A DNA stretch of 64,000 nt from Eledone cirrhosa (Eukaryota). Of this stretch, positions 13,830-54,565 are shown one piece after another. The stretch lies in NCBI GenBank assembly GCA_964016885.1, contig OZ024742.1, positions 223,448,001 through 223,512,000 of the forward strand, written 5' to 3'. The position numbers and the translations under genes were made by a program. Under the pieces are notes generated by a model. The model ran no database searches. It worked only from the letters and a program-made list of their open reading frames with translations, and was not told where the DNA came from. Each line of letters opens with the position of its first letter. The stretch's first letter is position 1.

Positions 13830-15094
13830 ATTCTGAACTGTGAATGGATTACAACCTCCAGATTCAGTAATCTGTACGAAAACTACGTGGCGGACATGTA
13901 AATAACATAGATGTCATTGACAGTTTTAGCCATGAGTTTTCTATATATTCTACAGAAATTTTCACTCACTCTAATAAACCCACTTATTATTGTAACCTTA
14001 TCTGCTTTTCCTTCACTCTGCCATAGGTAATTCTGGAAGCGGAGTTCTCTATATACACTTTCTGTCTATGTGACGGGATAGCCATCACGATTTACATTTA
14101 CTGTGTTATAATTGTATCGGCCATACAATGAATTTCACTTGGGACGTTGGGTTGAGTGACCGAACGTGAGGATTTTGGGGGATGGCAGTTATTGCGGACC
14201 TGTCGTATTTTCAATTTACTCACTGGTATGCTGGCTGTACATAAACACTACCTTTCTTCAACTCATCGTACTTTATTTTATTTTAGATTTTAGGTGTTTA
14301 TCGCAGACCACCTATGCGGATAAATCCCCTGGGTATATGTTTTGGAAACATAGTGTTATCTCGCCTAACGCTCAGAACTGGAACCAATGGATGTTGTTCG
14401 TAGGGTGCTGATATGATACGGAGAATCGACCTGTTACAAGGAGATATAACTGGAGTACACCATCCTTCCTATAGACAATCCTACATGTAAAGCTGCACCA
14501 CCGCTAACCAACTATCCTTCTCGCAGACTCATGCTTGCAAGCTCCCTTAATCTGCCTGTACACCCTGTATTTGCACTGCTTGTGCTTTGATGTATCTATG
14601 CTTTGCTTCGTTTTTTTTTTTGTTGTTTTATTGTTTTTCTTATTGTTTTTGATCATGCTGAGTAACACCTTCACTCATTCCTTGCTACCCTCTCCCAACC
14701 CCCTTATCATCTATTGCACCATTTATGTGATCAATTTTTGATGTAATTTTTGATGTAATTTTTAATGACATTTTATGACATTATATGCATCATGTATTGT
14801 GTCTTTTTCTATATAGCGCTGGTCCTTTAACCTTGTTCTGGTGACGCAGCTTGATGGAGCATGCAACTATTGATATACTCTTGTTTATAGGCTCTGATGA
14901 TTCCTGCCATAGGGTATGGATGAAACACTGTTAGCTAATAAAACAATGTATTTCTAAGCACTCTTTGGTTATTCCTAAAATTATAACGGCTCTGTAGTAT
15001 ACTAGTTATCCTACATTGAGCTAAAACCACACTGTCATACCAAGGGCAATATATCTGCGTGTCTGGGCACATTGATATACTTGTCAACAAAACT
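13830..15094 (+). mobile_element. Probable Penelope-like pseudo-LTR / non-autonomous fragment
   Basis: Contains a hammerhead-like motif immediately followed by AATAAA and ends at a (TA)n run. No recognisable ORF. Left boundary uncertain. Confidence 0.4.
14890..14936 (+). ncRNA. Type I hammerhead ribozyme-like motif
   Basis: ggct-CTGATGA-ttcctgccatagggtatggat-GAAAC-act-GTT-agct. Stem I ggct/agct. Stem II has a T-T mismatch at its base. Confidence 0.6.
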
Positions 15095-15108
15095 ATATAT
15101 ATATATAT

Positions 15109-17128
15109 AAGAAGAGACCCTACCCCACGTAGACCCTATAGAGGGACCAGCAGTACAAGTCAGCGGCAGCGTAGTAAGTAAGGCAATCAGAGATATGAAG
15201 ATAGGGAAGGCAACCGGTCCATCGGGTATAGCTGCCGAGATGCTGAAGGCATCTGGGTCTGTAGGTCACACTATAACCACACGTATCGTTAACCAGGTAA
15301 TACTAGAGGGGGCCATACCAAAAGATTGGTGCAGTAGCATCATTGTCAACTGCTACAAAGGTAAAGGCGATGCACTAGATAGAGGAAACTATAGAGGTAT
15401 AAAGTTGATGGACCAGGTCATGAAAGTAACAGAAAGAGTTATAGCACAGCTGATTAGGGACCGGGTGAATATAGACGAGATGCAATTTGGGTTTGTACCA
15501 GGGAAAGGCACCACTGATGCGCTCTTCCTTGTGAGGCAATTACAGGAAAAGTACCTAGCTAAAAGTAAGCCACTCTACTTGGCATTTGTCGACCTTGAGA
15601 AAGCCTTTGACAGAGTTCCACGTGCAGTAATCTGGTGGGCTCTTAGAAAACTAGGAGTAGATGAATGGCTTGTGAAAGCGGTACAAGCCATGTATAGGGG
15701 AGCAGTCAGCAAAGTTAGGATTGGCAATGAGTATAGCGAGGAATTTAGCGTACAGGTTGGGGTCCACCAGGGCTCTGTTCTTAGCCCTCTCCTGTTCATC
15801 ATAGTCCTGCAGGCAATAACGGAGGAGTTTAAGACCGGATGCCCATGGGAACTCCTGTATGCTGATGACCTCGCACTCATAGCTGAATCTATGGTAGAAC
15901 TAGAGAATAAATTCCAAACCTGGAAGCAGGGACTAGAGAGAAAGGGCCTCAAAGTCAACATGACAAAGACTAAGGTCCTTATAAGTAGACGAGAAAACAG
16001 AACCCAGATCCCCTCAGGGAAATGGCCTTGCTCAGTATGTAGGAAAGGTGTAGGTAGGAACTCCATTCTTTGCCCCAAATGCAAACAATGGGTACACAAG
16101 AGATGTAGCGGGATCTCAGGAAGCTTAATTAAGAATGTAGGATTCACATGCAGCAGCTGTGCTGAAACAGCAAGCAAACAGCCACAGGAAACAAGTACCA
16201 CCAATCTCTGGGAGGGCCCTGTAGAAACAGTAGACAGCTTCTGCTACCTAGGTGACCGAATTAGCAACGGAGGTGGGTGCTCAGAAAGTACAATAACTAG
16301 GGTAAGAACGGGATGGAAGAAGTTTAGGGAACTACTACCACTGCTAGCTGCAAAAGGCTTCTCCCTCAGAATGAAAGGCAGACTGTATGATGCGTGTATC
16401 CGAACAGCGATGTTGCATGGTAGTGAGACCTGGGCGCTGAAGGTGGAAGACTTACGTAGATTAGAGAGAAACGAAGCCTGCATGCTCCGATGGATGTGTA
16501 ACAGTAATATACGTGAACGACAAAGCATAAATGAATTGAGAGAGAGACTGAGCATAAGAGGAATCAAATGCTGCGTGCAGGAGAGGCGGTTACGCTGGTA
16601 TGGACATGTGATGCGTATGAAGGATGACAGCTGCATAAAAAGGTGCAGAGCACTAGAAGTTGATGGAAACCGCGGAGTGGGGAGACCCAAGATGACTTGG
16701 GATGAGGTGATAAAAGCCGACCTTACCCAACTACACCTCTCAAAGTCAATGACACACGACCGTGACTTCTGGCGTCACGCAGTAATACAGGGTACCCGAC
16801 CTCCCATGGGTACATGCTGAAGCATATAAACAATATGCCCCCCCCCCCCCCCACCGCAAGGTGGTCGTGGAGGTGCCACGGCAAAAAAGCACCCAGCCCA
16901 CACTGTAAAGTGGACGTGTAGGCGCCACGAAAAAGCACCCAGCACTCACTGTAAATGAGGTTGGTGTTAGGAAGGGCATCCAGCTGTAGAAATCAAGCCA
17001 GATCAGTTCCTGTATGAGCAAGGCATGGTCAGCCGACCAGACACTGCCCACAACAGGACAACCCGTCTAACCCATGCTAGCGTGGAAGAACGGACGTAAA
17101 ACGGTGATGATGATGATGATGATGATGA
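15109..17128 (+). mobile_element. Young, 5'-truncated RTE-clade LINE
   Basis: Open RT ORF, 3' UTR with gcacccagc...ctgtaaa repeats, terminal cccatgctagcgtggaagaacggacgtaaaac followed by (GAT)n. Confidence 0.95.
15195..16820 (+). CDS. RTE reverse transcriptase (541 aa, endonuclease domain absent) with internal PHD-like finger
   Basis: Motifs NYRGIKL, QFGF, FVDLEKAFD, GVHQGSVLSPLLF, LLYADD, FCYLG, RRLRWYGHVMR. C4HC3 cluster at 16029-16160. Confidence 0.9.
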   Translation: MKIGKATGPSGIAAEMLKASGSVGHTITTRIVNQVILEGAIPKDWCSSIIVNCYKGKGDALDRGNYRGIKLMDQVMKVTERVIAQLIRDRVNIDEMQFGFVPGKGTTDALFLVRQLQEKYLAKSKPLYLAFVDLEKAFDRVPRAVIWWALRKLGVDEWLVKAVQAMYRGAVSKVRIGNEYSEEFSVQVGVHQGSVLSPLLFIIVLQAITEEFKTGCPWELLYADDLALIAESMVELENKFQTWKQGLERKGLKVNMTKTKVLISRRENRTQIPSGKWPCSVCRKGVGRNSILCPKCKQWVHKRCSGISGSLIKNVGFTCSSCAETASKQPQETSTTNLWEGPVETVDSFCYLGDRISNGGGCSESTITRVRTGWKKFRELLPLLAAKGFSLRMKGRLYDACIRTAMLHGSETWALKVEDLRRLERNEACMLRWMCNSNIRERQSINELRERLSIRGIKCCVQERRLRWYGHVMRMKDDSCIKRCRALEVDGNRGVGRPKMTWDEVIKADLTQLHLSKSMTHDRDFWRHAVIQGTRPPMGTC

Positions 17129-19289
17129 AGTGCATATGATATATAACAGGATATATCAATTGAGAAACAATCTAGTATTTTGTACATATACACAGAACAA
17201 ATAATATGTAAATTTAAATACATACTCCTAGATGTTAAAAAGGTATATACTCTCAGAGAAAGAACTGTTTCTGGAAATCAAAAAAAAAGAAATGTAAACT
17301 TTTGATCACAGTAATTAGTATCAATCACCAATTATCACTCTGAACTGAAATTTATTGAGTTTTGTACAGAGAAACATTAGGAGTATACATTTTATATGTA
17401 TTGATTAAACCTAAAATTAGCTTATATATATATATATATGGAGAGAGAGAGGGGGGATTTAAATGGCATTAATATGTCATGCCATATAATAGGAAACAAA
17501 ATAAATATTTAACTGTGATGCTAATAACTTTTTCTGTAAATGGGAATTAAATCTTTAAAGATCTCTTATAATAATACCCCCACCTACAACCCAAATCATA
17601 TTCATCTAGAAAATATTTTTTTGCTTTGTAAACAGAGAATTTAAAAAATGTATTTACCCCTTTGTCCAGCATGGAACATAAACTGAATACAAGTGAAATT
17701 CTTTCTAAAAAAAACTTTCTTGTAATAATAATAATAATACACAGAGAGGAAGAAAGCTATTCTGAATAGAAAGAACATTTTATGATTTTACTAAGTAGGT
17801 TAACCAGTTTGTTTGTAGTAGAAAGCAAAGCAAGATAGCTTTTTGAAGCAAGTAGTAGACAAGTAGACTAAATAAAAGAAGCTTGTATCAACAATATTTG
17901 ACAACAGCTGGATTTGGCAGGTCAGTCCTAAATACTTAAAAATCATTTGTGTGTGACAAACCCTGTACTCCAGTGCCCACTGCCTTTTCTGCAGGCTAGC
18001 AAACAAACAGTACATTTTTCTGCCATGAAAATCTCAATCATTAATAACTTTTACATTCAGTAAAAGATCTGTCAATACACTGTTTAATGTCAACAAGTTG
18101 AGTGATAATCCGCTTAACTATTGGCCCATTTTTTTGTTTTTTGTGTGTGCAGGTGGCATGGCTGTGTGGTTAAGGAGTTTGCTTTGAAACCATGTAGTTT
18201 CAGGTTCAATCCCACTGTGTTGAACCCCCTTCTACTATAAACTCCATTTGATCAATGCCTCCATCATCATTATTTTTACGTCAATTTTTCCATACTGGCA
18301 TGGGTTGAATGAAATGTTTTGAGACAATGATTTACAACTGATGCCCTTCCTGATGCCAACCCCTCTTTTCGCCTCTTACAATATACCATTGTGTATATAT
18401 ATTCAACCAGATGAAGCAATTCAGCTGAAACTTTAGAGCCACTGCCTCTTTTCTTTTCAGAAAATAGAATTTATATTCTGGTATTTTACTCCCATTGTGT
18501 ATGTTCCCATGTCTATGTTTATCTTTGTGCCAGCATTTATATCTCATAACTTAACAATTCAATAAAAATAGATGGATAAGATAAGTACCAGACTTAAAAA
18601 ATTAGTACTTGGGTCAATATGATTAACAAAATCAAAGCAATGTCCCAGCAGAGCTGCAGTCTAATTCTCATAGTTTCTTTCTTTGCACATCTAGATTATG
18701 AAATTCTCTTTCAGCTTCTTCCTTTCTTGACCACTACAATTTTCAAAATTTCAAGGGCGACATCAATCATCATCTCTCTCCTTGAATTATGTTCTGTCAG
18801 TAGCCCCTTCCCAGTAACCCCTTGCATTTTAGTGGCTTTATTGTGTTGCTTTGGATGAGTAAAGAGAAAAGAAAAAAAAGTAAAAGAACAGGGAAGAATA
18901 GGGAAATAGTATTGGTGTTTCAGTTTTGAGGATGTGCATTGAACATCGGTCATTTCTGAGAACCACTTGAGATAATCAACTAAACAGCCTGTTTGTGAAA
19001 TTAACATGCAAGTGGTCAAGCATTCCACAGACATTTGTATCTTTTATATAATTCTCAAGGAGATTTGGCATGACAGTGTGTAACAAGGCTGGCCCTTAGC
19101 TGGCTCATTTTTTCCAGCTAGGTGAACTGGAGCAATATGTGCACTTAATATAGTTCTCAGGGAGATTTAGCATGTCACAGTATGTGATGAAGCTGGTCCT
19201 TTGAAATATAAGTACAACTCATTTTTTTGCCAGCTAAGTGGACTAGTGCAACATAAAATAAAGTGTCTTGTTCAAGGGCCCAACACACC

Positions 19290-19446
19290 CTCGGACGCCA
19301 TGCTTTCCAGCATAGTTACGTCCCTTTATGGTCTGAGTTCAAATCCTGCCGAGGTTCACTTTGCCTTTCATCCTTACGGGGTCGATAAAAAAGTACCAGT
19401 AATGCACTGGGTAATTGCTGGCCTTGTGCCAAACGTAGAAACAATT
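19290..19446 (+). mobile_element. SINE (Meta-like), with a second copy on the minus strand at about 19625-19800
   Basis: Same central domain and tail as the 4528 copy. Confidence 0.8.
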
Positions 19447-20985: not shown

Positions 20986-21046
<61 letters not shown>

Positions 21047-23608: not shown

Positions 23609-23693
<85 letters not shown>

Positions 23694-23709
23694 TAAAATA
23701 ACAGATTAA

Positions 23710-23760
23710 AGTTTAAGCAAAGAATCGCTGCTTTCACCCTTAACGGGATCTTCTGAAACT
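23710..23760 (-). ncRNA. Degenerate hammerhead-like motif
   Basis: Minus strand: agttt-CAGAAGA-tcccgttaagggt-GAAA-gcagcgattctttg-CTT-aaact. Stems I and III pair. Core U4 is changed to A. Lies next to a (TC)n(TA)n run. Confidence 0.5.
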
Positions 23761-24026
23761 AACAAAGTCGATCTGTAAACGCAGAACTGGATATTTCAAA
23801 AAACGTTGCAACCGGAGGAAGACAGGAAGACGATACTTTGGTTCATGGAAACGTTCGTTGGCAAAGAACGGGAAAAATCGAATAATACGTCATTAATAGG
23901 AGCGGTGAAAAACAATTACGCGCAAAGACAGAACCACGTTTATGGTATAAAAGAGGTCGTAGACTAATGTTCTCTTAGGTGGTGCATAGAGACGTTCTCT
24001 GGCAATGAACGAAAAAACGAAGATAA

Positions 24027-24797
24027 TACGTTTTACACCCGTTCTTCCACTAGCATGGGTTAGACGGGTTGTCCTGTTGTAGGCAGTGTCCGGTCGGCTG
24101 ACCTTGTCTTGCTCATACGGGAACTGATTCTGGCTTGATTTCTACAGCTGGATGCCCTTCCTAACACCAACCTCATTTACAGTGAGTGCTGGGTGCTTTT
24201 TTCCGTGGTGCCTACACATCCACTTTCCAGTGTGGGCTGGGTGCTTTTTTGCCATGGCACCTCCACGATCACTTTGCAGTGGGAGGAGGTCGGGGCATAT
24301 TGTCTATATGTTTCAGCTTCGGTGTGTACCCGTGGGGGGTCTTCTATATTACTGCGTGACGCCAGAGGTCACGGTCATGTGTCATTGTCTTTGAGAGGTG
24401 TAATTGGGTAATGTTGGCTTTTATCACCTCATCCCAGGTCATCTTGTGTCTCCCCACTCCGCGGCTCCCATCGACTTCTAGTGTTCTGCGCCTTTTTATG
24501 CAGCTGTCATCCTTCATACGCATCACATGTCCATACCAAAGCAACCGCCTCTCCTGCACACAGCAATTGATTCCTCTTATGCTCAGTCTCTCTCTCAATT
24601 CATTTATGTTTTGCCATTCGCATATATTACTATTACACATCCATCGGAGCATGCAGGCTTCGTTTCTTTCTAATCTACGTAAGTCTTCCACCTTCAGCGC
24701 CCAGGTCTCACTACCATGTAACAGTGCTGTTCGTATACACGCATCATACAGTCTGCCTTTCATTCTGAGGGAAAAGCCTTTTGCAGTTACTCCCTGA
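24027..24797 (-). mobile_element. RTE 3' fragment, same subfamily as the 15109 copy
   Basis: ORF 24344-24763 is nearly identical to the C-terminus of the 15195 ORF. 3' UTR present. Confidence 0.93.
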
Positions 24798-24866
24798 ACT
24801 TATATATATATACATATATATAGTGAAAAGGTAACAAGGACGATTGGTTATTCCTTCATAACATTT

Positions 24867-24952
24867 GGTGATGCGCGTTTCGCTACTGATCAGCTCAAGG
24901 TTCGATCTGTATCGATCTTACCCGACTCTGTAATCTGCGGCTCGTCGGACCC
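24867..24952 (-). ncRNA. Degenerate hammerhead-like motif in a short (TA)n-flanked segment
   Basis: Minus strand: ggt-CCGACGA-gccgc...gtagc-GAAACGCGC-ATC-acc. Segment lies between TA runs at about 24801-24822 and 24959-24993. Confidence 0.5.
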
Positions 24953-24963
24953 CTTGATTATAT

Positions 24964-24994
<31 letters not shown>

Positions 24995-25137
24995 TTAAAG
25001 GTTAAACAAGGTTCAATGAATAAATCAAAGAATGAGTTTTACAATAGATTGGAAGCACTCAACAAGAATGGTTTTCCGGAGTTATTAATATTAATTCAAA
25101 AAATTAACAAAAATAGACATTCGTGTGATCAAGTATA

Positions 25138-25200
25138 TTTTATTATACATATTTCAGAGGTACTGAGCTAACTTCAACAGTACGTCCTCATCAGATAAAA
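25138..25200 (-). ncRNA. Type I hammerhead ribozyme with intact core, in the inverted pseudo-LTR
   Basis: Minus strand: TTTTAT-CTGATGA-ggacgtactg(loop)cagtacctct-GAAA-tatgt-ATA-ATAAAA. Stem I 6 bp; stem II 9 of 10 pairs; short near-palindromic stem III. Confidence 0.8.
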
Positions 25201-25735
25201 TAAGATGATGCATGACATACCCTGACATAGTAGATGGTTAAGATTCAGTCATGGTAGTGAATAAGATATGACAAAACTCAATATTTATATACCTTAAGAT
25301 TGAGACATGAAAAAATTTACATATAATACAGAGAGTGCATGTGGGAAATCTTAAAAATACATAATAGAAATTTACATAACTGTTAGAGATTCAAATAATT
25401 TAAATTATTGAAAAAAGAAGAAAGAAGAAAGACAGAGAGAAACAGATGAGGAGAAAATATAGTTACTAGAAGTATAGAAAGCAAAAGAGAATTGATCAAG
25501 GATAGAGAGACAAGGAGTAATAATTTTTATAGTATAAAGCATAGTGAGGGAGGATTGTATTGTCGTGGATGAATAGGGTGTGATTAGATAATGCAAAAAT
25601 AATATATATCTATACAAACACATGAATATACATTTAGGCATATCTTTGTGAAGGAGTAAACTCGAATCTTTGAATTATTGAATTATCTAGAAGTATCCAT
25701 CAATCTAAATGTTAAATATATCTGGGTGTAATTAT

Positions 25736-27716
25736 ATGAAACTATCGAAACTATCTTTAAATCTAGAAAAAAATCCTCCATACAACAAACTCCTGGAGGA
25801 TTTTGAAACAGAAATGCTTAATATACTAAAGAAGATTAAATTCAGGAAAACCCCATATAAAGGTCACCAATACCTTAGAATTCTAAAGGAAAAAATCTCG
25901 GATATAAAAAAAGTTAATGAAATATTGGTGAAGTCTGACAAAACCAACAATTTATATGGGATAAATAAAGCTGAATATAATTATTTAATTTTAAAAGAAC
26001 TGCGAAAAAATTAAAGAAAAGCCCCGGCCGAAGATCTTATAGACATCAATAATGATGCATTTAAATTAATAGCCAAACTTGGAATTGAAGAAAGAACTGA
26101 GCCTTTTATACCTAGACAGCCGAGAATAAATTTTAAGGATCACAAGAGAAACTTTGAGGAAGACCTGCCAGTTAGACTGATAGCTCCATCTAAATCGGAT
26201 ATTGGAGTAATCAGTAAGAATATTATTGATAGAATTCTACCTACTCTAAAATTGAAGTCTAAATTGAGCTTATGGAAGGACACCAATGAAGTGATTGACT
26301 GGTTTAAAAATGTAGATAATAAGAAAAATCACAAATTCATCCAAATGGACATAGCAAGCTATTATTCTTCTATTACACCTAACCTATTAAATAAGGCTTT
26401 GTCTTATGCTTACAAACATACAGATCTAACTACGGATGAAATCAATATTATATTATCTGCTAGAAGAACTCTAATTAATTTCAACAATGAATATTGGACC
26501 CGTTCAGATAGAAATAGAAACTTTGACATTACCATGGGATCATCGGACTCAGCGCAGGTCACCGATCTTCTGGGGATTTTTATCTTAAATATGGTAATTA
26601 GAAAACTGCCGGAGATTACCGGTGGTTTATATAGGGACGATATTTTATTTACGGTTGTCAAACATAGCAATACAGAACTAAATAGGGTTAAGAAAACTAT
26701 AATTGAATTCTTTAAAAATTACGACCTTAAATTAGAAGTTGAAAGTAGTACCAAAATAGTTAATTTCCTTGACGTTACCCTTAACTTAAACTCAGATTTT
26801 TATTACCCTTTCCATAACCCCAATGAAAACTTAAATTACGTTAGCTATTACTCTAATCACCCTAAATCCATGAAAAACGCAATAGTCAATAGTGTACAGA
26901 AACGCATAACTAGAATATCCACTAATAAATCCATATTTGCTGAAAAAGCAGGATATTATAATGACGTGCTACGAAAGGCAGATTATAAAATAATTGTTTC
27001 TACTTTAGGCACAAGGCCAGCAATTACCAGTGCATTACTGGTACTTTATTTTATCGACCCCGTAAGGATGAAAGGCAAAGTCAACCTCGGCGGGATTTGA
27101 ACTCAGATGGTAAAGGGACGTAACTATGCTGGAAAGCATGGCGTCCGACCCTCTACCGATACTGCCAATCCACCGCCCTATAAAATAATATTGAATATAT
27201 AGATAATAATAATTTGATTTATGATCCTGATAAAAATAAGACTAACATATATAAACGAGATTCTAAAAATTATAATACAAACACCAGTACCGTGAATAAA
27301 TCGGGGGAAAAATCAGAACTAAATCAGTTATATGGTCTATAAATGCACCGTAAAAGCAAATAACATCACATACAACTATATTGGTGCAACTTCATCGACA
27401 TTTAAATCAAGATTTTCGAATCACAAATGCTCTTTTTCGAATCCTAATAGGAAATCTTCGACTTCTTTATCACAACTTATATGGTCGTTAAAAGACAAAA
27501 ATTAAAAATACTCGATTTCTTGGTCGAAGCTGTGTAATAGTCGAATCTACTTGAATTCTTCAATATCACCTAACTGCAATCTCTGTACCATGGAGACCCT
27601 ATTAATAATTACTAATTATGAAAATTTTATTAACAAAAAAGGGAATTATTCTCAAATTGCCTTCTTAAAGCTTCCTCTACATTCCAAGCCTCGCAAAAAG
27701 TCAGGAAAAAACACTA
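25736..27716 (+). pseudogene. Penelope-like RT plus GIY-YIG endonuclease, disrupted
   Basis: VKSDKTNN, FKDHK..RLIAPSKSDIG, FIQMDIASYY, FDITMGSSDSAQ, GLYRDD, VNFLDVTL, YVSYYSNHP. From 27332: MVYKCTV..YIGATSSTFKSRFSNHK..STSLSQLIWSLK..CNLCTME. Frameshifts near 26012 and around the SINE; stop near 27503. Confidence 0.88.
26995..27178 (-). mobile_element. Full-length SINE inserted in the Penelope ORF
   Basis: Perfect 11-bp TSD tataaaataat at 26984-26994 and 27179-27189. Confidence 0.92.
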
Positions 27717-28779
27717 AATAAATAGGTTCTAATTTTTTGACGTCTCTTATCAACTGAGTGCGTAAAACGTTATAACAGATTATAAAACCTTATAATAATT
27801 TTTATTCTTTTAAGATAAGATTAATGGGTTCTATATAGGTATATAAACATATAGATTGTTAACATGATCTCTTGATGAATATGCATATCATTTGATTGTG
27901 TAGATACAGTTAATTTGATTGAGATTCTTGTATTTTGTTTTTAAATATAGCTTATATCGTTAACAGTTCTAATGAACCGTAAATCATTTATGTATTTGTG
28001 TATCTATTCTTTTGGAGTATGTTAGTTTTACGATTCAGGATGTTTGATTTATATATTTATATTTATTTATATATATTTATGGTATATGCGTCGCACACGA
28101 TCCTAGTCGACAAACTTTTTCCACTTAACTTGATGTAAAACTTCAATTATAACTTTACTAACAATGATTGTATTTATTATTTATTACATGTATATGGATC
28201 ATTAATATCGTCTCGAGTTCCGAACAGAATACTCTATGTATATTTGGACAAATATATATATATAGTATAATAACATGCTTCTAGCTACACTTATAAGTAC
28301 TTTAGATACTTAAGGACATTCTAGTGTTATAATTGTTAAATATTTTCTAAATTATATAACGATTATTATTTTTTAATTTAATTAAATTCGGGTTATCTTC
28401 GGGTCAATGAAAATCTTAAGTTTTCTCTTTCCATGTTTGCAGACACTTTAAATATGATATTATACTACAATATAGATCCTTAAAAAATGTTCTTGTATTT
28501 TAAAATTATATAGCTTAGATATTTGGCACTTTTATGATCGCAAACAATTTACTTTGAATCTGGTTCTTATCCTTATGATTCATGAAGTTTGATTTTTTAA
28601 TTATAGTATATATGTATTACATGATCCTAATATAATATCCAAATTTTTTAACAATATTAACAGTAACTTATTTATTATATTATATTATGTTATGTATAAC
28701 TGACTAATATCGTCTTGAACTTTAGACAATATGCTTTTTGTATATATATTTAGACAAATGCAAATATTTAATATAATAA

Positions 28780-28955
28780 TTGTTTCTACTTTTGGCACAA
28801 GGCCAGCAATTTCCCAGTGTATTACTGGTACTTTATTTTATCGACCCCGTAAGGATGAAAGGCAAAGTTAACCTCGGCGGGATTTGAACTCAGAATGGCA
28901 AGGGCCGTAACTCTATGCGTCAAAGCATGGCGTCCGACCCTCTACCGATACTGCC
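28780..28955 (-). mobile_element. SINE (Meta-like)
   Basis: Same family, with aataat on both flanks. Confidence 0.85.
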
Positions 28956-29340
28956 AATAATACCCTTTTTTAAGTTTAATTATAAGGCCTTTAGATACTT
29001 TAAGGCATTCTAATTGTTAATTTTAAATTTTTTAAGTTATAACTGTAATTATTTTCTAAATTATATAATGTAAATTATTTCAATATAAAAAATTTTTTTT
29101 AATATAATATAAGATAATATAATTTAATATGGATTACCTTCGTGAGGATGAAAATATTAAGTATTCCTTCTCATGTTTGCAAATACTTTAAATATGATTT
29201 TATAAATTAAATATGATAGTATACTTTAATATTAATATAGATATTTATAAACTTTTATAGCCTGAAATATTATACATTTTGATTAATTCATTATTCTAAA
29301 CTAACATAAATGATTTGAAATTTAACGGTCAGCCGGATAC

Positions 29341-30393
29341 ATCATCATCATCACCGTTTTACGTCGGTTCTCCCATGCTAGCATGGGTTAGACGGGTTGT
29401 CCTGTTGTGGGCAGTCTCTGGTCGGCTGACCACGCCTTGCCCATAGAGGAACTGATTTTGGCTTGATTTCTACAGCTGGATGCCCTTCCTAACACCAACC
29501 TCATTTACAGTGAGTGCTGGGTGCTTTTACCGTGGCGCCTACACGTCCACTTTACAGTGTGAGCTGGGTGCTTTTTTGCCGTGGCACCTCCACGACCACC
29601 TTGCAGTGGGAGGGTGTGGGGGAATATTGTCTATATGCTTCATGGGAAGTTGGGTACTCTATATTACTGCGTGACGCCAGAGGTCACGGTCGTGTGTCAT
29701 CGCCTTTGAGAGGTGTAATTGGGTAACGTTGGCTTTTATCACCTCATCCCAGGTCTTCTTGGATCTCCCCACTCCACAGTTTCCATTGACTTCTAGCGCT
29801 CTGCACCTTTTTATGCAGCTGTCATCCTTCATACACATCACATGTCCATACCAACGCAACCGCCTCTCCTGCACACAGCATTTGATTCCTCTTATGTTCA
29901 GTCTCTCTCTCATTTATGCTTTGTCGTTCGCGTATATTACTATTACACATCCATCGGAGCATGCAGGCTTCGTTTCTTTCTAATCTACGTAAGTCTTCCA
30001 CCTTCAGCGCCCAGGTCTCACTACCATGTAACATTGCTGTTCGGATACACGCATCATACAGTCTGCTTTTCATTTTGAGGGAGAAGCCTTTTGCAGCTAG
30101 CAGTGGCAGTAGTTCCCTAAACTTCTTCCATCCCGTTCTTACTCTAGTTATTGTACTTTCTGAACACCCACCTCCGCTGCTAATTCGGTCACCTAGGTAG
30201 CAGAAGCTGTCTACTGTTTCTACAGAGCCCTCTCAGAGATTGGTGGTACTTGTTTCCTGTGGCTGTTTGCTGCTTGCTGTCCCAGCACAGCTGCTGCATG
30301 TGAAGCCTACATTCTTAATTAAGCTTCCTGAGATCCCGCTACATCTCTTGTGTACCCATTGTTTGCATTTGGGGCAGAGAATAGAGTTCCTAC
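29341..30393 (-). mobile_element. RTE 3' fragment nested in the Penelope 3' region
   Basis: Near-identical reverse complement of 16055-17110, with a (CAT)n tail at 29341. Confidence 0.93.
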
Positions 30394-30822
30394 GTTTGGA
30401 TATATATAGTGTAAATAATTAATTGTTAGTATATTTCTAATTAACTAAGGACTCGAAATTAAACCCTCATATAATTACACCCAGATATATTTAATATTTA
30501 GATTGATGGATACTTCTAGATAATTCAATAATTCAAAGATTCGAGTTTACTGTTTCACAAAGATATGCCTAAATGTATATTCATGTGTTTGTATAGATAT
30601 ATATAATTTTTGCATTATCTAATCACACCCTATTCATCCACGACAATACAATCCTCCCTCCCTATGCTTTATACTATAAAAATTATTACTCCTTGTCTCT
30701 CTATCCTTGATCAATTCTCTTTTGCTTTCTATACTTCTAGTAACTATATTTTCTCCTCATCTGTTTCTCTGTCTTTCTTCTTTCTTCAATAATTTAAATT
30801 ATTTGAATCTCTAACAGTCATG

Positions 30823-30886
<64 letters not shown>

Positions 30887-36615: not shown

Positions 36616-37523
36616 TTCTTCATTTTACTTTGTTATTTCTATTTACTTTTTATACACACACACACACCCACACACGTGTGTGTGTGTATGTGTAAAAAAA
36701 TGTAATTTATAGCTCACAGTTTTGCAGGTTTAGCCTGTCTCCTTTGAGGTTGCTTCTTATTGGAGGTTTCTTCAGTGTTTTAATGATAGGAGACCCAGGA
36801 CCTACCATGGAAAGCAATGTGAAATGAAGCATCTTGCTCAAGAACACAACTTGTCACCTAGTACAGGAATCAAACACATGACTTTATGATTCTGAGTCCA
36901 GCACCCTAACCTCTAGATTAACAAAAGTTTAGCAAATAAAAATAAAATACAAAAAAAAAAAAACCAGAAACCTGTCACATATGTGTGTGCTTACGTTTGT
37001 GTCTGTGTTTATCAGTTTGAAAAGAAAATAATTGAGAGATTGATGGAATAAGTACCAGGCTTGAAATAAATACATACTGGGGTTGATATGATCAACTAAA
37101 TCAAGGCAGTGCCCCAGCATGGTCACAATTCAATGACAGAAACCAGTATAGGTATAAAAAAAAAAAAAGAATAACTAAATGTGTTTTGATTTATTCTGAT
37201 ATTCCATGTCAAATATCCACAATAGTATATAGTGGCATGCAACCAGCCATAAAATGTCCCATTATCCTCCTGACCAGATACAAAGTAAGACAGTGAGCAA
37301 GCCATTCACTATAATATATAATCACAGCAAGACTTTACTGAAAAACTACTACTGTGCCAATTGGAAGTGATGAATGCTTCTGAGACAACCTTATTACTGG
37401 GTGAGAGATTTATCACCAACATTAGCTTAAAAACCTTATCTGAGTTTATATATATATATGTATATATATATATATGTGTGTGTGCGCACGCATATATATA
37501 TATATAAATATATATATATATAA

Positions 37524-37594
37524 CCTGTTTATCACAGTGTCTTCAGACTGATGACCCTGTTATAAACAGGCGAAACTCCAAAGTAACAAGAGTC
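37524..37594 (+). ncRNA. Hammerhead core with a fold-back 5' duplication
   Basis: CTGATGA (37548-37554)-ccctgttataaacaggc-GAAAC-tc...ga-GTC. 37524-37546 is an inverted copy of 37548-37570 with 3 mismatches. Segment lies between TA runs. Confidence 0.65.
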
Positions 37595-37734
37595 ACTATT
37601 TAGCCTTAATAGAATAAATATTAAAATTCTACTTCAGTATTGAGTACTCTTTTCTCTCAGACGTCAACCTCATACAGATATATATATATATATATATGAT
37701 ATATGCATATATTGATAGATATTTACGTATATAG

Positions 37735-44522: not shown

Positions 44523-44689
44523 TGCTTCAAGCAAACTATCACACCCTATATATATATATATATATATATATTTATGTAATAATATTTATTACATAACTAT
44601 TAAGCTCTGTTACCTACATAGAGCACTCTTTTTTCCTGGACTTTTCCGACGGAATTACTTCATTCATACATATATATATATATGTATAT

Positions 44690-44809
44690 ATAGGAACAAG
44701 TATGACCCCGACGGCAGAGCTCAAGCCGTTTCGACGGCTAATTCTGGACGTCCAGAATTAGCCGTCGAAACGGCTTGTGCTCTGCCGTTGGGGTCATACT
44801 TGTTCCTAT
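44690..44809. repeat. 120-bp near-perfect palindrome containing half a hammerhead
   Basis: Centre ggac|gtcc at 44749/44750, 2 mismatches. Contains GAAACGGC...GCCGTT. Segment is flanked by TA runs. Confidence 0.9.
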
Positions 44810-44918
44810 TACCCACTCTACTACCCTAAGTATTGAGTACTTTGGTGCGTTATGGTCCATCTGGTTCCTTACCACATTTCCTTCGTTATATATATATATA
44901 TAAATGAAAAGTATAGAA

Positions 44919-44955
<37 letters not shown>

Positions 44956-45104
44956 TCAAATACACACATATATCCATACACATAGACATATATATAAACT
45001 TCTGGGTAACAGAAGTCAAAAATAACAGTAGAGTGAGATTTGAGGGAAATTTGGCTGCTATTTCTAGCAGTTCAGGCGAACTTAGTCGTCTGTCGAGTTA
45101 TCTC

Positions 45105-45176
<72 letters not shown>

Positions 45177-45601
45177 GTGTGTGTGTGTGTGTATAAATAT
45201 ATATATAGTGAGAGAGACGTGTGGGCTTCTATACATTTCCATATAAATCAAATCAAGCTTAAACACGAACATACATAAATACACACATACATTAATAAAT
45301 ACACACACATATACATGCACCAGAAACATGTTTTTATCCATGTCAAACTTTATTATTACTATTTTACTAGTAATCTTTCGGTTTAAGATCATAGAAAACT
45401 TTCCGCAATTTTCGAAGTATTTTATGACAATTGAAAAAAGAATTATCAACTAAATCGTAATCTACCTCATATACATTAATATTAGGAAATAAAATCGGGT
45501 GGTGGTGGTGGACACTAAACTGAAGCTATGTCGTTATATATATATATATATATATACTAAGATAATAATAAATGGAAATTATATTTATAAAACCATATTT
45601 A

Positions 45602-45662
45602 TTTTATTATATATATTTCAAGGGCGACCAAGCCAATCTTGGTGCGCTTTCATCAGATAAAA
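45602..45662 (-). ncRNA. Type I hammerhead ribozyme with intact core
   Basis: Minus strand: TTTTAT-CTGATGA-aagcgcaccaag(attgg)cttggtcgccctt-GAAA-tatat-ATA-ATAAAA. Same stems I and III as the 25138 copy. Segment lies between TA runs. Confidence 0.8.
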
Positions 45663-45993
45663 TACAAAATTTGTTTTATAAATAATGACATACCCATGGA
45701 AATCGCACCTTAACGGTCCGAAATTCGCTGGATAGTCCAGTAATCTGTTGAATGCTCTATATCAGTTATAAACATTTATGTTTGTCGGAATTCCAACAAA
45801 TTAAATACAACTCCTACATATATATATATATATATATGCGTTCGATTTCCGAAAGCCACTCTGACACTTTTACCCGTATGTAATGGTTTATATGCCTTAA
45901 TTTATCGACCATTTTATAGTTAAACGTACGTTGTAGCAGCTTACAATAAGCTAACATACTTCTAAATTCAAATTTTCTCAACGCTTCGTAAAT

Positions 45994-46052
<59 letters not shown>

Positions 46053-46278
46053 CATACATACAAGACGACATAACTAGTTTAGTGTCTCCCTCATAACTTT
46101 CTTAATACCTTAATACACATTACGATTATGTTTATAAAATTAGGGGGAACAAATTATCATTTTTACCTACGGAAATTACCGGAGGTTGTCAGTGATCTTA
46201 AAACGAAGGATTACTGCATTTTCTTTTTTGGGTTTTGTATTTCATTTTTAAATATTCTTAAAAGTTAAACCGTCTCAC

Positions 46279-46489: not shown

Positions 46490-46717
46490 CTAAATTAGCT
46501 TCTATCGCCGTTTACCTTCTCGCTCACTACCTGTTGCTGCATTCATCGACTTATCAGGTGTGGTGTCTGTTTATATATATATAAGAGGCACGTTCGCTGA
46601 AACTTTGAAGTCACTGTCGCTGTTTTCTTCGGAAAATAAATTTTACTACACTCAACTCAGTGTATTGAGTGCTAATTAAGTTAGTGTTTGACTGTTTTAT
46701 GTGCACTGGCTTTTGAA

Positions 46718-46767
<50 letters not shown>

Positions 46768-49850: not shown

Positions 49851-51149
49851 TTAGCATCACGAACAATAACAAAAACCTTCTTTATCAGTCTCTCTGATTT
49901 TCTTGAATGCCACATGTTGAAAAATGTAGTTTGCCAATAATTTACTGTATTTTGGTAGTATATCCTATTTGGCTAGGCGGAGAAGGTTGGATAGGATGCT
50001 TTACAGTATTCGTTTTGGCTCTCTGATCTCTAAGGTCAAATCCAAAGGCTAGCTTTGCCTTTCATCCATTCAAGGTTGATAAAAAAAGTACCTGTCAAAT
50101 ATTGGGGTTGATTCTTCCTGTATATCTCTTTCTCATTTCCATTCTCTCACTCACTATCCTTCTCTGGAAGAAATCTGCTGTATTCAGACCTGGAGAGGAG
50201 ATGAGCTCCGCTAAGTTTTTTAAACCATGCATACATTCTATTTGGCTATGGATGCAGTGATCCTTTCCTTTGCCACAGCATCCTGGATGCCATGGACTGT
50301 ATGTGCTTTTAATAAATATGGTTTAAACCCTTAGAGCTGAAGCTGGTCAGTTTGATAGAGAAATCTTCTGTCAGTCAGAAAGGGAATAATTTCATGTCCT
50401 CCCACTGAAAAAGACATCTAACTTTTTTTATACCAATCTTGAAACCACCTCTGGTTTTAGGGTACAACGCTATATATTTCAAAGTGTTTATATTCATCTT
50501 AAAACCTTCCATCACACTTTTACGTAAAAACATTTGTTAAGTTCTGTTATAAATACCAGCTTAATAATTCTTTCTAATATTGGCATAAGACCAGCAATTT
50601 AGGAGAAGAGAAAAAGTTGATTATATTGACCCTAGTACTTAACTGATACTTTATTTTATCAACCCGAGAAGGATGAAAGGCAAAATTGACCTCAAAGGGA
50701 TTTAAACACAGAACCTCAAAAGATGTAACTAAATACTGCAAAGCATTTTGTCAGATGCTCTACCAATATTTCCAATCCACTGCCAATCATATTGACCGAT
50801 CAAACCAAGGGTAAGGTATTGTTCTCAAAATAAATAATATTAATCTCATAGATTTTATATTATGTGAGGTAAGGCCTTTACTACGAAAATACAAAAGTAA
50901 ATATAGAGTAATGTAAATGCTATAAGGTTAATGAAGTTAGTTACATTAACTAAATCATTCCAAATTCTTGATAATTTTCAATACAATTTGAAAATTATAC
51001 AGTTTTTATATATATATATCATCTTCATCTTGATCTTTGCTCTTTAAATTCTGCTGCTGGTGATCAAACTTTGTGGAGAAAAATATCTCATGTTGATGCG
51101 TAGTCTGCAACTGGCAGAGTTTAGCAAAGAAGAGAGATTATCTTCATCA

Positions 51150-51800
51150 CCATCATTGTCCTTTATATGTCTGCTTTTCCATGCTTGCATCGATTTGACA
51201 GGTCCTTTTCAGCACAACATGCTGCTTCATCATCTCCTGAGAGTTTCAGCTATTTGAGATTAGCTTTCACCACCACCACCCAGGTCTCCCTTGGTCTTCT
51301 ACTGTGACTGCCTTCTACTGGGATTTCCTGGCACTTCTTAACTCAGCGATCCTTATCCATGCAGATTACATATCCATACCATCGCAGTCTCCTCTCGTGC
51401 ACACTACATCTGATTCCTCTTGTACTCTGTTTTTCTCTCAAGCTCTGCCATTTTCTCACATTAACATTGCACATCTATCAAAACATGCTTGCTTCATATC
51501 TCTCAAGCCTATGCATATCCTCTGCAATTACTGCCATGTTTCACTACCATGCAGCATTGCGCTTTGCACACAGGCATCATGCAGCCATCCTTTCATTCAA
51601 CAGAGTGAGTAGCTCTCTAAACTTCTTCCATTCAATTCTTATTCTAGCTACTGTACTCTCGAAGCACCCACCTCTACTGCTAATTAGATCACCTAAATAG
51701 CAGAAGCTATCAACCACTTCTGTAAATCCTTCATGTAATTGGAAAAGGTTTATATTACTAATGCTCTCACTGTTGATTACTCCAGTGCATCTATTGTATA
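51150..51800 (-). mobile_element. Degraded RTE 3' fragment
   Basis: Similar to 11860-12540. Confidence 0.85.
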
Positions 51801-51976
51801 TAATTCAAAAGTAAAAGATATATGTATATATTGAGAGAGATAAAAAGGACCATATATCATAGAAAATACACAATTTATTGTCATCATCATCACTTAACGT
51901 CTATTTTCCATGCTAACATGGATCAGATGGTCAGGTGACCATATCTTGCTCATATAGGACTGTTTCTGGCTAGATG

Positions 51977-52028
51977 AACCCTAACCCTAACCCTAACCCT
52001 AACCCTAACCCTAACCCTAACCCTAACC
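51977..52028. repeat. Interstitial telomeric repeat (AACCCT)8AACC
   Basis: Perfect TTAGGG-type array. Confidence 0.95.
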
Positions 52029-52462
52029 ACATTTATAGTGTGTGCTGGGTGCTTTTTGCCATATCTCCTACATGACAACTTTATAGTGTGTGCTAGGTGC
52101 TTTTTGTCGTGACACCTACACAACCACTTTACAGTGTAGGCTGGGTGCATTTTGTCGTGACACCTATATGACCACTTTACAGTGTAGGCTGGGTGCATTT
52201 TGTTGTGACACCTATATCACCACTTTACAGTGTAGGCTGGGTGCATTTTGTTGTGACACCTATATGACCACTTTACAGTGTAGGCTGGGTGCATTTTGTT
52301 GTGACACCTATATCACCACTTTACAGTGTAGGCTGGGTGCATTTTGTTGTGACACCTATATCACCACTTTACAGTGTAGGCTGGGTGCATTTTATTGTGA
52401 CACCTATATGACCACTTTACAATGTGGGCTGGATGTTTTTGTGATACCAACATAACTTTACA
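52025..52462. repeat. 48-bp tandem repeat derived from the RTE 3' UTR unit
   Basis: accacttt starts at 52123, 52171, 52219, 52267, 52315, 52363 and 52411, plus degenerate flanking units. Confidence 0.92.
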
Positions 52463-53384
52463 GAGTAAGGGTGGTGTGGGCATAAGTGGGAGAGTGGTGT
52501 AAGGGGTGTAGGTGTATGTGGAATGGGGGCTACAGTGGATTAAGAGGTGCCTACTGGGTATATGTTTGAGTCTGTGTGCAAGGAAAGGCGAGTCTTCTGT
52601 ATTACTGCATAACACCAAAGATCTCGATCCTGTGTCATTGTCTTTGAGAGGTACAAGTTCACCATGTCAGCTTTTATCACTTCATATCAGGTCTTACTGG
52701 GTCTTTCTACTCCGTAGCTTCCATCAATTTTGATCGCCCTGCACCTTTTTATACAGCTGTCATCCTTCATATGCATCACATGACCATACCAACGCAATCC
52801 CCTCTCTAGTATACTGCATCTGATCCTTCTTATGCCTAATTTCTCATTTAGTTCACTTATGCTTTGCTGTTCGTGTATATTACTATTACACATCCATTTC
52901 TTTCCAATCTGCCCAGTTCCTCTGCACACAATGCCCAAATATTACTATCATGTAACATTGTTGTTTGTATACAAGCATCATATAATCTGCTTTTCACTTT
53001 TAGGGAGAAACCTTTTGCAACTAACAGCAGTATAAGCTCTCTGAACTTTTTCCATCCTGTTCTTACTCTGGCTATTGTACTTTCAGAACACCCTCCTTTA
53101 CTGCTGCTTTTATCACCCAGGTAACGGAAAGCGTCAACTATTTCTATAGAACCCTCTGGGTAATTGAAGGAGCTAGTATCCTGCGGGCACTTACTGAGCA
53201 TTGGCCACTGCACCTGAGTATCAGCCACATATAAAACCTATGTTCTTTGATAGCTTGCCTGTGATCCCACTACATCTTTTATGTACCCATAGCTTGTATT
53301 TGGGACATAGAATGGAATTTCTACCTTCTCCTTTCCTACACACTGAGCAAGGCCATTTCCCAGAGGGAATCTGTGCTCTATATA

Positions 53385-53841
53385 TGTAACGAAGGGTATT
53401 AGTATTTATCGTTGGATGATGAAATAACAAGAATAGCTGGTTTACTTTATATATAAAAAGGTTTACTTCACTTCATAAATTAACAAAGAACAGGTTATTA
53501 AGAGTTATAAACGGTTGAAGGTGTTTTTGGTGTTGCTTCATAATGCTGGCGTAGTCTGTAGTCTGAGACCAGGAGAGAGAGTAATGGTCTGTGGTTGTTT
53601 GTAGACCCCAGTGACCTGTAGGTAGCAGTGAATGTTTTACATAGCTATTCTCTAGCGTACTGATCCGATCTCTATGTGTGTTAGACGTGGGATGATACAG
53701 GCTCTTTATACCTGTCGTTATCTGTTTCCCACCTCGAGGGATCGCCCATGCATGGACTTGTTTACGCTGAAAAGGATGGTGACCTAGAATTTGATCATTA
53801 GGTGTCACCCAGGGATCAAGGCGTGGACAGATTTCGCTACA
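53385..53841 (-). mobile_element. Probable solo LTR, 457 bp
   Basis: TG...CA ends with imperfect inverted termini tgtaacgaa/ttcgctaca, tata on both flanks, minus-strand TATAAA near 53705. Confidence 0.6.
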
Positions 53842-53922
53842 TATATACAAAGCACATATTTCACAGATGAATATGTACTCTAGATGGAATCAGTATATAT
53901 ATATACACACACTCACATACAT

Positions 53923-53957
<35 letters not shown>

Positions 53958-53960
<3 letters not shown>

Positions 53961-54360
53961 TAGTATTGGTGCTCTGAAATAGCAGTGTATATATGAATGT
54001 ATGTATAGTATATTTAATAATACACTGTATGTTTAATTAAAAACATTTTAAAGACCATTCGCTATGAATTTTAAAGTAGTGACTATATCACTTATTTATT
54101 CCCAGCAAAAACAAAGGGGAGTAATCGACAGTCCTGTTTCTCACTCATTAGCAGTTATCAAGACTAATCACCCCTTCGCTTCTGCCGAATGTTATAGAGG
54201 GTGGATTCTTATAGAATTCCAGTAATGTTTAAGAGCTGATTAAACAGAGCGGTTGCGGTCCAGCAAAAATTAGGTATTAGTATTGGTGCCCTGAAATAGC
54301 GATGTATATATGAATGTATGTATAGTATATTTGATAATATACTGTATGTTTAATTAAAAT
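53958..54360 (-). mobile_element. 317-bp partial tandem unit with a decayed hammerhead-like motif (retrozyme-like)
   Basis: Direct repeat of about 85 bp at 53958 and 54275. Minus strand at 54123-54165: agtc-TTGATAA-...-GAAACAG-ga-CTGTC-gatt. TA-rich flanks. Confidence 0.45.
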
Positions 54361-54525
54361 ATATACATATAGACACCTTCGATCACCGTCTTTTAAAACA
54401 GGACCAACTGAACTTCTTATATACAAATGCACAACAGTTTTCCAAGAGATGGTGACTTGAAAGAATTTTTTTTTGTTACTGCCCACTCTCCTCTATCTTT
54501 CTATTTCTTCTTTAATTTCTCATTC

Positions 54526-54565
54526 TATTTTCTGATGAAGGGCTAGCATCTGAAATATTAAGACT
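54526..54565 (+). ncRNA. Decayed minimal hammerhead-like motif
   Basis: tttt-CTGATGA-agggctagcatct-GAAA-tatta-aga. Stems are weak. Confidence 0.35.

What the first reader, a model, noticed from the sequence alone, without database searches (positions are those of the whole stretch)
14890..54565. Nine hammerhead-like motifs in 40 kb, mostly in short (TA)n-anchored segments
Seen: cores at 14890(+), 23710(-), 24867(-), 25138(-), 37548(+), 44767 (half core), 45602(-), 54123(-) and 54532(+), with mostly unrelated stem sequences and usually next to (TA)n runs. Known: Penelope pseudo-LTRs and non-autonomous retrozymes carry minimal type I hammerheads that can cleave as dimers. Inference: several distinct small ribozyme-bearing families target TA microsatellites and are mobilised by a Penelope-like RT like the one at 25-30 kb. 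Such families are invisible to ORF-based annotation and could give circular RNAs.
Basis: partly seen in the sequence, partly recalled or inferred. Interest (0 to 1): 0.8.

Follow-up and report, generated by a model that had tools for sequence, protein, structure and literature searches.

The report
Penelope retroelement ends carrying hammerhead ribozymes
The nine motifs are real hammerhead-shaped sequences from nine different high-copy repeat families; six are end pieces of ordinary Penelope-like jumping genes and one is a small non-coding retrozyme repeat that lands with the same two-armed footprint in TA repeats, which suggests it is likely moved by those genes' enzyme.

Summary
All nine sites belong to repeat families with a type I hammerhead fold: eight searched genome-wide gave 1,335-3,408 first-look candidates each, the ninth is frequent in fetched loci. 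Five window copies are intact, three decayed, one is a half. They are mostly not small non-autonomous families. Five (25138, 45602, 24867, 23710, 44767) are pseudo-LTR ends of separate coding Hydra-clade Penelope-like elements, 54532 belongs to a Neptune-type element, and 14890 and 37548 are ends of longer elements whose ORF I did not reach. Only 54123 is a retrozyme: 310-318-nt tandem units, no coding parent seen. The density is ordinary for this 3-Gb genome (20 hits in 400 kb, 1.2 after shuffling; of order 100,000 motifs). Hydra elements, their hammerheads, TA targeting and inverted copies with a one-sided tail are published, and this scan noted such fold-backs before in shark-like genomes. 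Not found in print: 52 of 56 head-to-head insertions pair one arm from each of two fixed 3' ends, and the retrozyme does the same (11 of 11), a likely footprint of its mobilisation by a Penelope-type enzyme; a family-wide U4A core; 5' ends piling up inside one ribozyme's loop II. Cleavage, expression and circles are untested.

The parts
13837..15093 (+). Family H: 3' end of a long element (at least 1.7 kb shared non-coding upstream in other copies; ORF not reached); ends at (TA)8
14891..14935 (+). Hammerhead H, intact: core CTGATGA, U.U at the base of stem II, short palindromic stem III, GUU triplet (cut predicted after 14932)
23689..24031 (-). Family F: 5'-truncated 3' end of a young (98% identical) Hydra-clade PLE family; abuts (TA)16; cut by an RTE fragment
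23710..23760 (-). Hammerhead-like fold F with family-wide U4A core (CAGAAGA), 5-bp stem I, 5-bp stem III, CUU triplet
24823..24958 (-). Family D: 136-nt TA-bounded piece of the pLTR of a second Hydra family; hammerhead 24867-24951 with U4C core (CCGACGA at 24948-24942) and a 60-nt stem II; triplet mutated in this copy
24995..25739 (-). Family A: inverted pLTR arm of the coding element, ending at the distal 3' end next to (TA)n; intact hammerhead 25136-25202 (cut predicted between 25144 and 25143)
25742..27718 (+). Broken, 5'-truncated Hydra ORF (DKT motif, RT, C-terminal GIY-YIG); in-frame stops, a SINE at about 26985-27181, linker region deleted
27719..30825 (+). 3' UTR of the same element with a second SINE (28770-28958) and an RTE fragment (about 29341-30390); stops about 180 nt short of the hammerhead at (TA)29, at neither usual 3' end
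37523..37678 (+). Family C: old 156-nt TA-bounded fold-back piece; hammerhead 37548-37591 has lost the 5' strand of stem I at the junction
44693..44886 (+). Family E: two-arm insertion (inverted arm 44693-44748 ending at the proximal site, direct arm 44749-44886 ending at the distal site); only the right half of the hammerhead (from 44767)
45559..45818 (-). Family B: two non-overlapping arms, 45559-45736 (-) with an intact hammerhead at 45600-45664, and the tail alone, inverted, at 45744-45818; TA on both sides
53958..54359 (-). Family I: retrozyme copy of about 1.3 units (312-nt unit plus terminal repeat) ending at (TA)8; hammerhead 54119-54169 with U3-A8 core
54462..54627 (+). Family G: decayed pLTR piece of a Neptune-type PLE; minimal hammerhead 54528-54563 with CpG decay

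Best explanation
The motifs sit in the terminal repeats (pLTRs) of at least six separate protein-coding Penelope-like retroelement families, five Hydra-clade and one Neptune-type, plus one non-coding tandem retrozyme family, and the short TA-bounded pieces are likely by-products of an integration step that primes reverse transcription twice. Shown: families A, D, E, F and a sister of B have an RT plus C-terminal GIY-YIG ORF 0.9-3 kb upstream of the hammerhead; each of six families ends at two fixed 3' positions some 60-95 nt apart, both next to (TA)n; head-to-head insertions carry one arm from each end; the arms share subfamily letters; in about a third of E pairs the proximal arm reaches further 5' than the distal arm. 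Inferred: the endonuclease nicks both strands of a (TA)n run, each nick primes the RT at one of the two start sites on the same RNA (or two RNAs of one locus), and the two cDNAs are joined head to head. When the RNA starts at the pLTR promoter just upstream, the product is only 100-300 nt long; for family E that start is inferred to lie inside loop II, so most copies get half a ribozyme. The retrozyme (family I) integrates with the same footprint and is therefore inferred to be copied by a Penelope-type enzyme from a circular or multimeric RNA. Self-cleavage is predicted from structure only.
For: Coding parents: 750-aa frame with DKT, linker, GIY-YIG; pLTR-ORF-pLTR in L164; intact 774-aa frame with DKT, CxCX5C, GIY-YIG, CxxC, CxH in L300, E half at both ends in 6 of 12 extended loci in full and 5 more in part; ORFs upstream of F and D; ORF, 1.2-kb UTR, then B-type hammerhead 86% like the window's over 137 nt in L222; G between two tandem Neptune-type ORFs in L313. 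Two ends: E +20/+103, A +57/+150, F +26/+112, B about +60/+145, D about +53/+138-148, C +36/+94 from the predicted cut. Pairs in loci not fetched for the family: 52 of 56 mixed (E 32 of 32), about half expected, p about 5e-12 if pairs are independent. Same subfamily letters on both arms 36 of 36, 33% expected. 12 of 32 E pairs have the proximal arm reaching further 5' than the distal arm (list). 5' ends: 40 of 86 E arms at -45 to -36 and 3 within 5 nt of the cut site; 18 of 20 short C copies stop exactly at the A of TTAGTT (the search pattern required that A). Family I: 318-nt tandem in L266, 17 of 29 loci run through the unit junction, arrays of 7 units in L178 and L224; 28 of 62 arms exceed 330 nt; 45 of 47 typed ends lie next to TA; 11 of 11 fully typed pairs mixed, 6 more pairs untyped; units fold as circles at z -3.5 to -5.1. 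A purified PLE protein nicks and extends both strands and starts at two internal sites on uncleaved RNA (PMC11167929).
Against: No ORF was reached for H or C. The window's own A element ends on the right at neither usual site. Most E pairs overlap, which a fold-back of one cDNA also explains. Some pairs may be duplicates by segmental duplication (identical flanks were collapsed only when 50 flanking letters matched). The 5' pile-up motif in E and D also fits a 3' splice site, and D's 5' ends are spread. In family I the end typing is by pattern and 12 of 62 arms fit neither end; Naiad elements, also TA-targeting in octopus, could be the helper. No RNA evidence. Monomer folds mostly do not give the hammerhead as the lowest-energy structure.
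Confidence: 0.85

Rival explanations
1. One reading: all nine are small non-autonomous ribozyme families (retrozyme- or SINE-like) moved in trans by one Penelope RT such as the 25-30 kb element.
For: Short TA-bounded copies far outnumber long ones (E: 83 of 86 arms start within 55 nt upstream of the cut site or later); family I fits fully; some short copies may themselves be transcribed and re-copied (a tandem 257-nt E unit).
Against: Six families have their own coding parent or a close sister; junctions differ from copy to copy; C and H continue into long shared upstream sequence.
Confidence: 0.1
2. The inverted arms arise by fold-back self-priming of a single cDNA (or antisense self-priming, as proposed for rotifer Penelopes), the second end being set by TA microhomology, not by a second priming on RNA.
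For: Most E and C arms overlap and meet at near-palindromic junctions; both arms share subfamily letters; both ends are followed in the template by TA-like letters; self-priming is proposed in PMC3846280.
Against: In the window's B copy the arms do not overlap; in 12 of 32 E pairs the proximal arm holds sequence absent from the distal arm, which neither arm could have copied from the other.
Confidence: 0.25
3. Family I is tandem satellite amplified at DNA level from a captured pLTR; its fold-backs are DNA rearrangements and no circular RNA is involved.
For: Near-identical arrays exist (L178, L224); local amplification of retrozyme arrays is discussed in bioRxiv 10.64898/2026.07.22.740005.
Against: Dispersed copies on many contigs end at two fixed positions next to TA with one arm at each, including one in the random sample (L352).
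Confidence: 0.15
4. The motifs are chance matches in AT-rich repeats.
For: Core-only count within the shuffle range; no Rfam hit; one unlisted descriptor hit at 50828(-) is probably chance.
Against: 20 against 1.2 hits in 400 kb; cores fixed in families; stem II keeps a hairpin in 6 of 9 divergent sequence clusters of the A/B group at z below -2; position matches published Hydra hammerheads.
Confidence: 0.02

Closest known systems
Hydra clade of Penelope-like elements, including Hydra-1_Obim of Octopus bimaculoides (Craig et al. 2021, PMC8557442; section 11 whole, passages, supplement rows and part 2 read)
   Same: DKT motif, CxCX5C linker, C-terminal GIY-YIG with CxxC and CxH, (TA)n target, canonical-type hammerhead near the 3' end, often with U.U at the base of stem II; RT resembles Hydra-1_Obim by eye.
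   Different: At least five families here, 3.5-4.6 kb with 1-3 kb 3' UTRs (published: under 3 kb); tails of some 60-95 nt (published 30-40 nt for other clades); U4A, U4C and U3-A8 cores, none among the Hydra motifs listed in its File S2.
PLE insertion units with an adjacent inverted 5'-truncated copy and a tail at one end only (PMC8557442, PMC3846280; passages read); two RT start sites of Anolis PAc (PMC11167929; parts 1-2 of 4 read)
   Same: Head-to-head arms, one longer by a tail; two fixed 3' ends; uncleaved RNA as template.
   Different: Counted here as a near-strict rule (52 of 56), with non-overlapping arms; the ends show short TA microhomology, whereas PAc starts at non-homologous sites.
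Non-LTR retrozymes of animals (Cervera and de la Pena 2020, PMC7229834, passages; bioRxiv 10.64898/2026.07.22.740005, part 1 of 5 and passages)
   Same: Family I: 310-318-nt tandem non-coding units, type I hammerhead, low GC, self-paired circle fold; PLE helper proposed in both papers.
   Different: The passages seen argue from co-occurrence and pLTR phylogeny; here the arrays show the PLE two-arm, two-end insertion footprint. One subfamily has a U3-A8 core. Expression untested.
Minimal hammerheads of metazoan PLEs (Cervera and De la Pena 2014, PMC4209133; parts 1-2 of 4 read)
   Same: Mostly single, genome-wide motifs from truncated PLEs, extra base between positions 9 and 10.1, palindromic stem III, U3-A8 variant, pairs on opposite strands; family G matches the consensus.
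   Different: Numbers of order 100,000 (estimate) against 2,000-9,000 there; the axolotl has 126,247 canonical motifs (PMC7229834).

Membership tests
Hydra-clade PLE (parents of A, B, D, E, F) | Single ORF with RT and C-terminal GIY-YIG | tested here: met
   750-aa frame in L163, 774-aa frame in L300, partial frames for F, D and the B sister; Pfam support weak (RVT_1 E 7e-4 below cutoff for the window, none for L300)
Hydra-clade PLE (parents of A, B, D, E, F) | DKG changed to DKT | tested here: met
   A and E; D by eye; not reached for F and B
Hydra-clade PLE (parents of A, B, D, E, F) | CxCX5C linker; CxxC and CxH around the E and N residues | tested here: met
   A, E, F, D; one A copy has F at the last C
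Hydra-clade PLE (parents of A, B, D, E, F) | N-terminal RWK motif | tested here: inconclusive
   RWR in E and in an A relative, RWK in a further family (L216); N-terminus missing in other frames
Hydra-clade PLE (parents of A, B, D, E, F) | (TA)n target and hammerhead in the pLTR | tested here: met
Hydra-clade PLE (parents of A, B, D, E, F) | Placement in the Hydra clade on an RT tree | not tested
   Reference proteins were seen only in a supplement; compared by eye
Neptune-clade PLE (parent of G) | DKG motif, Cys linker, C-terminal GIY-YIG, minimal hammerhead in pLTR | tested here: met
   One locus, L313: DKGG, CxxxxCxxC, GIY-YIG (Pfam E 0.004), G between tandem copies; clade name rests on recalled motifs, no tree
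Non-LTR retrozyme (family I) | Tandem non-coding units of 150-450 nt, each with a type I hammerhead | tested here: met
Non-LTR retrozyme (family I) | No coding parent | tested here: inconclusive
   Among 29 copies with 700 nt upstream none shares more than 360 nt; a rare parent is not excluded
Non-LTR retrozyme (family I) | Expressed, self-cleaving, circular RNA | not testable with these tools
Non-LTR retrozyme (the other eight families) | Tandem units without a long parent | tested here: not met
   Coding or long parents found
Type I hammerhead ribozyme | Core CUGANGA ... GAAA, NUH, three stems | tested here: met
   A, B, C, G, H at family level; I and E with the known U3-A8 covariation
Type I hammerhead ribozyme | U at position 4 (families D and F) | tested here: not met
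   U4C in 19 of 25, U4A in 20 of 20; U4C is tolerated in a viroid (PMC3088659); U4A not seen in the passages read
Type I hammerhead ribozyme | Self-cleavage | not testable with these tools
   needs in vitro transcription

The most novel reading that the evidence does not exclude
Penelope-type integration always fires twice, once from each of two RNA start sites flanking a conserved TTGAGYRCT-like signal, and the retrozyme arrays of this genome carry exactly that footprint: direct genomic evidence that animal retrozyme circles are integrated by a Hydra-type RT/endonuclease, in a genome with of order 100,000 hammerheads, some with a U4A core and one split by its own promoter so that only read-through RNA can cleave.
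Probability: 0.5. Interest if true: 0.65.

Novelty: new variant of a known kind. Interest (0 to 1): 0.42.

Why it matters
The parts are known, so this is not a new class of element. It matters modestly because the helper of animal retrozymes is still a proposal, and here a retrozyme and young coding Hydra elements (one with an intact 774-aa frame) share a countable insertion footprint, which gives a ready enzyme-template pair for the in vitro assay already set up for a Penelope element. The many families also offer natural hammerhead variants (U4A, U4C, U3-A8, mismatched base of stem II) and a case where the promoter may split the ribozyme, which bears on the open question of what PLE hammerheads do.

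Tried and rejected
Rfam at both thresholds: no hammerhead. Core-only counting: not above shuffles. Monomer folding: uninformative for dimer-type motifs. The repeat finder over the whole window was swamped by the 15-nt array. First end-mapping was unusable for F and D because the references held TA runs; redone. An intron-split ribozyme for family E was considered: the parent has the whole motif unsplit and most short copies keep the A or G of the AG, so a start site is preferred to a splice site, not proven. The 257-nt E tandem is pLTR plus ORF leader, not a retrozyme. The Neptune ORF upstream of an H copy in L313 belongs to G, not H; a B arm behind an E element in L309 is a separate insertion. 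tblastn found no Hydra ORF within 1.5 kb of 30 C copies. Sequencing runs for family E: no RNA holder listed. Protein search gave 1,001 relatives at about 40% without useful names. The random sample was kept at 400 kb from the five largest contigs. Lunse et al. 2017 (PMC5785218) is not held; it may describe U4 variants. bioRxiv supplements were closed. Host species not determined; resemblance to octopus genomes is recalled, not tested.
Full report
Setting. The window lies in a 3.0-Gb animal assembly (G000:C3), 36% GC, with 52 runs of (TA)5 or more. I name the nine sites A 25138, B 45602, C 37548, D 24867, E 44767, F 23710, G 54532, H 14890, I 54123.

Check against chance. The bare core pattern is not enriched (6 against a mean of 3.7). 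A strict three-stem descriptor passes A and B only, and nothing in 40 shuffles. Rfam has no hammerhead match. A relaxed descriptor that admits U3-A8, U4C and U4A cores finds 20 motifs in 40 evenly spaced 10-kb stretches of the five largest contigs, in 12 of the 40, against 0-2 (mean 1.2) in 6 shuffles, and 5 in the window (A, B, F, I and an unlisted hit at 50828). So the window is ordinary for its genome. Scaling gives about 140,000 intact motifs (80,000-220,000 by Poisson limits; wider in truth, since hits cluster and only C1-C5 were sampled; the descriptor misses H-type motifs).

Families. DNA searches gave 2,380 (A), 1,450 (C), 2,623 (D), 3,408 (B), 2,230 (E), 1,335 (F), 1,925 (H) and 1,596 (I) first-look candidates, 40 scored each; these are lower bounds, not copy numbers. 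One exact 29-mer of E occurs 2,676 times. G was not searched genome-wide; it gave 19 hits in the first 150 loci. Core states per family are in the observation check. In the A/B group the stem II sequence falls into 9 clusters, 6 of which fold at z below -2 against base shuffles.

Parents. A: the window's RT has 124 scored relatives among 43,757 candidates; L163 holds a 750-aa frame with DKT and C-terminal GIY-YIG, and L164 reads pLTR-ORF-pLTR with the A hammerhead in the repeats. F and D: long copies lead into other ORFs with CxCX5C linker and GIY-YIG, 0.9-1.3 kb upstream of the motif. E: the sequence after its distal end leads into a fourth ORF; L300 has an unbroken 774-aa frame; upstream of the half motif the parents carry the missing half, with a U3-A8 core in 13 of 19 matches and C3 opposite A8 in 5, and a stem II of about 50 nt. 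B: a B-type motif, 86% identical over 137 nt, follows a Hydra ORF after 1.2 kb without break in L222. G lies between two tandem ORFs of Neptune type in one locus. H shares at least 1.7 kb of non-coding upstream sequence among 8 extended copies and C shares GC/CT-rich upstream sequence in 10 of 30 copies; no ORF was reached for either. Craig et al. define Hydra by these motifs and by (TA)n insertion and list one family from Octopus bimaculoides (PMC8557442).

The retrozyme. Family I has no long upstream among 29 copies; it is a 310-318-nt unit, 17 of 29 motif-bearing loci run through the unit junction, and relatives at about 70% form arrays of 7 units with a canonical core. The window copy is about 1.3 units long. 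Three units fold as circles at z -3.5 to -5.1. This matches non-LTR retrozymes (PMC7229834).

Insertion footprint. In loci not fetched for the family, arms end at two positions per family, next to (TA)n in 177 of 200 arms, and 52 of 56 head-to-head pairs hold one arm from each position (3 to 4 exceptions in F, D and B). Both arms of E pairs share subfamily letters in 36 of 36. In 12 of 32 E pairs and in the window's B copy the proximal arm holds sequence the distal arm lacks, and the distal arm holds the tail, so neither can be a copy of the other. A TTGAGYRCT-like motif lies between the two ends in A, B, C, D, E, and in weaker form in F and I; I saw a similar string near the end of a coral Hydra sequence in the supplement (by eye). 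Family I obeys the same rule: 11 of 11 typed pairs mixed, 6 further pairs cut or untyped, 45 of 47 typed ends next to TA. The one-sided tail and inverted copy are published, as are two start sites and extension of both strands in vitro. The likeness to L1 twin priming is recalled, not read.

5' ends. E arms pile up 36-45 nt before the predicted cut (40 of 86) and hardly at it (3 of 86); of 28 arms reaching that point, 18 match the parent for 2-4 letters further and 3 for 7 or more, some with T runs that look untemplated. Short C copies stop at the A of TTAGTT (18 of 20, pattern-conditioned). These strings resemble an initiator element (consensus recalled; Inr-like strings in pLTRs are noted in PMC3846280). 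The inference is that short copies run from the RT start sites to the capped 5' end of uncleaved pLTR transcripts, and that E's promoter lies inside its ribozyme. A splice site is the alternative; D's ends are spread.

Against. No expression or cleavage data; monomer folds are unremarkable; pair counts may include duplicated loci; the helper of family I could be Hydra or Naiad; no tree was built; the window's A element has an atypical right end.

Novelty. Searches for octopus or cephalopod with hammerhead or retrozyme, for Penelope with twin priming, inversion and tail, for retrozyme with Penelope and head-to-head, for U4 variants and for octopus repeat annotation (no mention of ribozymes in PMC13282606) found no report of the retrozyme footprint, the U4A family or the loop II start; subscription papers, Repbase and Lunse et al. 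2017 were not visible. Earlier notes of this scan describe fold-back Penelope ends with one-sided tails in shark-like genomes; none for this genome. Verdict: observation largely real, interpretation partly right, a new variant of known kinds, interest 0.42.

Noticed in passing
window 44571-44670 and 46584-46730: Two more TA-bounded segments with the tail motif but no hammerhead; the first matches sequence seen beside other family copies (L038), so probably tail-only arms of further families.
   Followed up: partly
L319-L358 (random sample): At least eight further hammerhead families not present in the window, some in tandem or on both strands.
   Followed up: no
L224:6861-9988 and L178:7639-9722: Young, near-identical 310-nt retrozyme arrays with canonical cores; L224 has two arrays joined head to head, each ending in (TA)n: best candidates for circular RNA.
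   Followed up: partly
window 15111-16820 (+), fragments at 24033-24799 and 29341-30390 (-): RTE-type LINE with RT and a PHD finger, 569-aa open frame, inserted right after a TA run.
   Followed up: no
window 4538-4722, 10456-10600, 26985-27181, 28770-28958, 63242-63380 and others: An abundant SINE of about 190 nt, two copies inside the Hydra element.
   Followed up: no
window 51977-52028: Interstitial telomere-type repeat (AACCCT)8.7 next to a 48-nt array from an RTE 3' end.
   Followed up: no
window 58912-61017 and 61300-62363: A 15-nt satellite of 140 copies and a 143-nt repeat of 7.4 copies at 97% identity.
   Followed up: no
window 45101-45177: (TC)20 directly followed by (GA)18, a perfect simple-repeat hairpin that draws spurious microRNA matches.
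   Followed up: no
many loci, e.g. window 24801-24994, L104, L199, L210: Arms of different families stack in the same TA run, so TA runs act as shared landing sites.
   Followed up: partly
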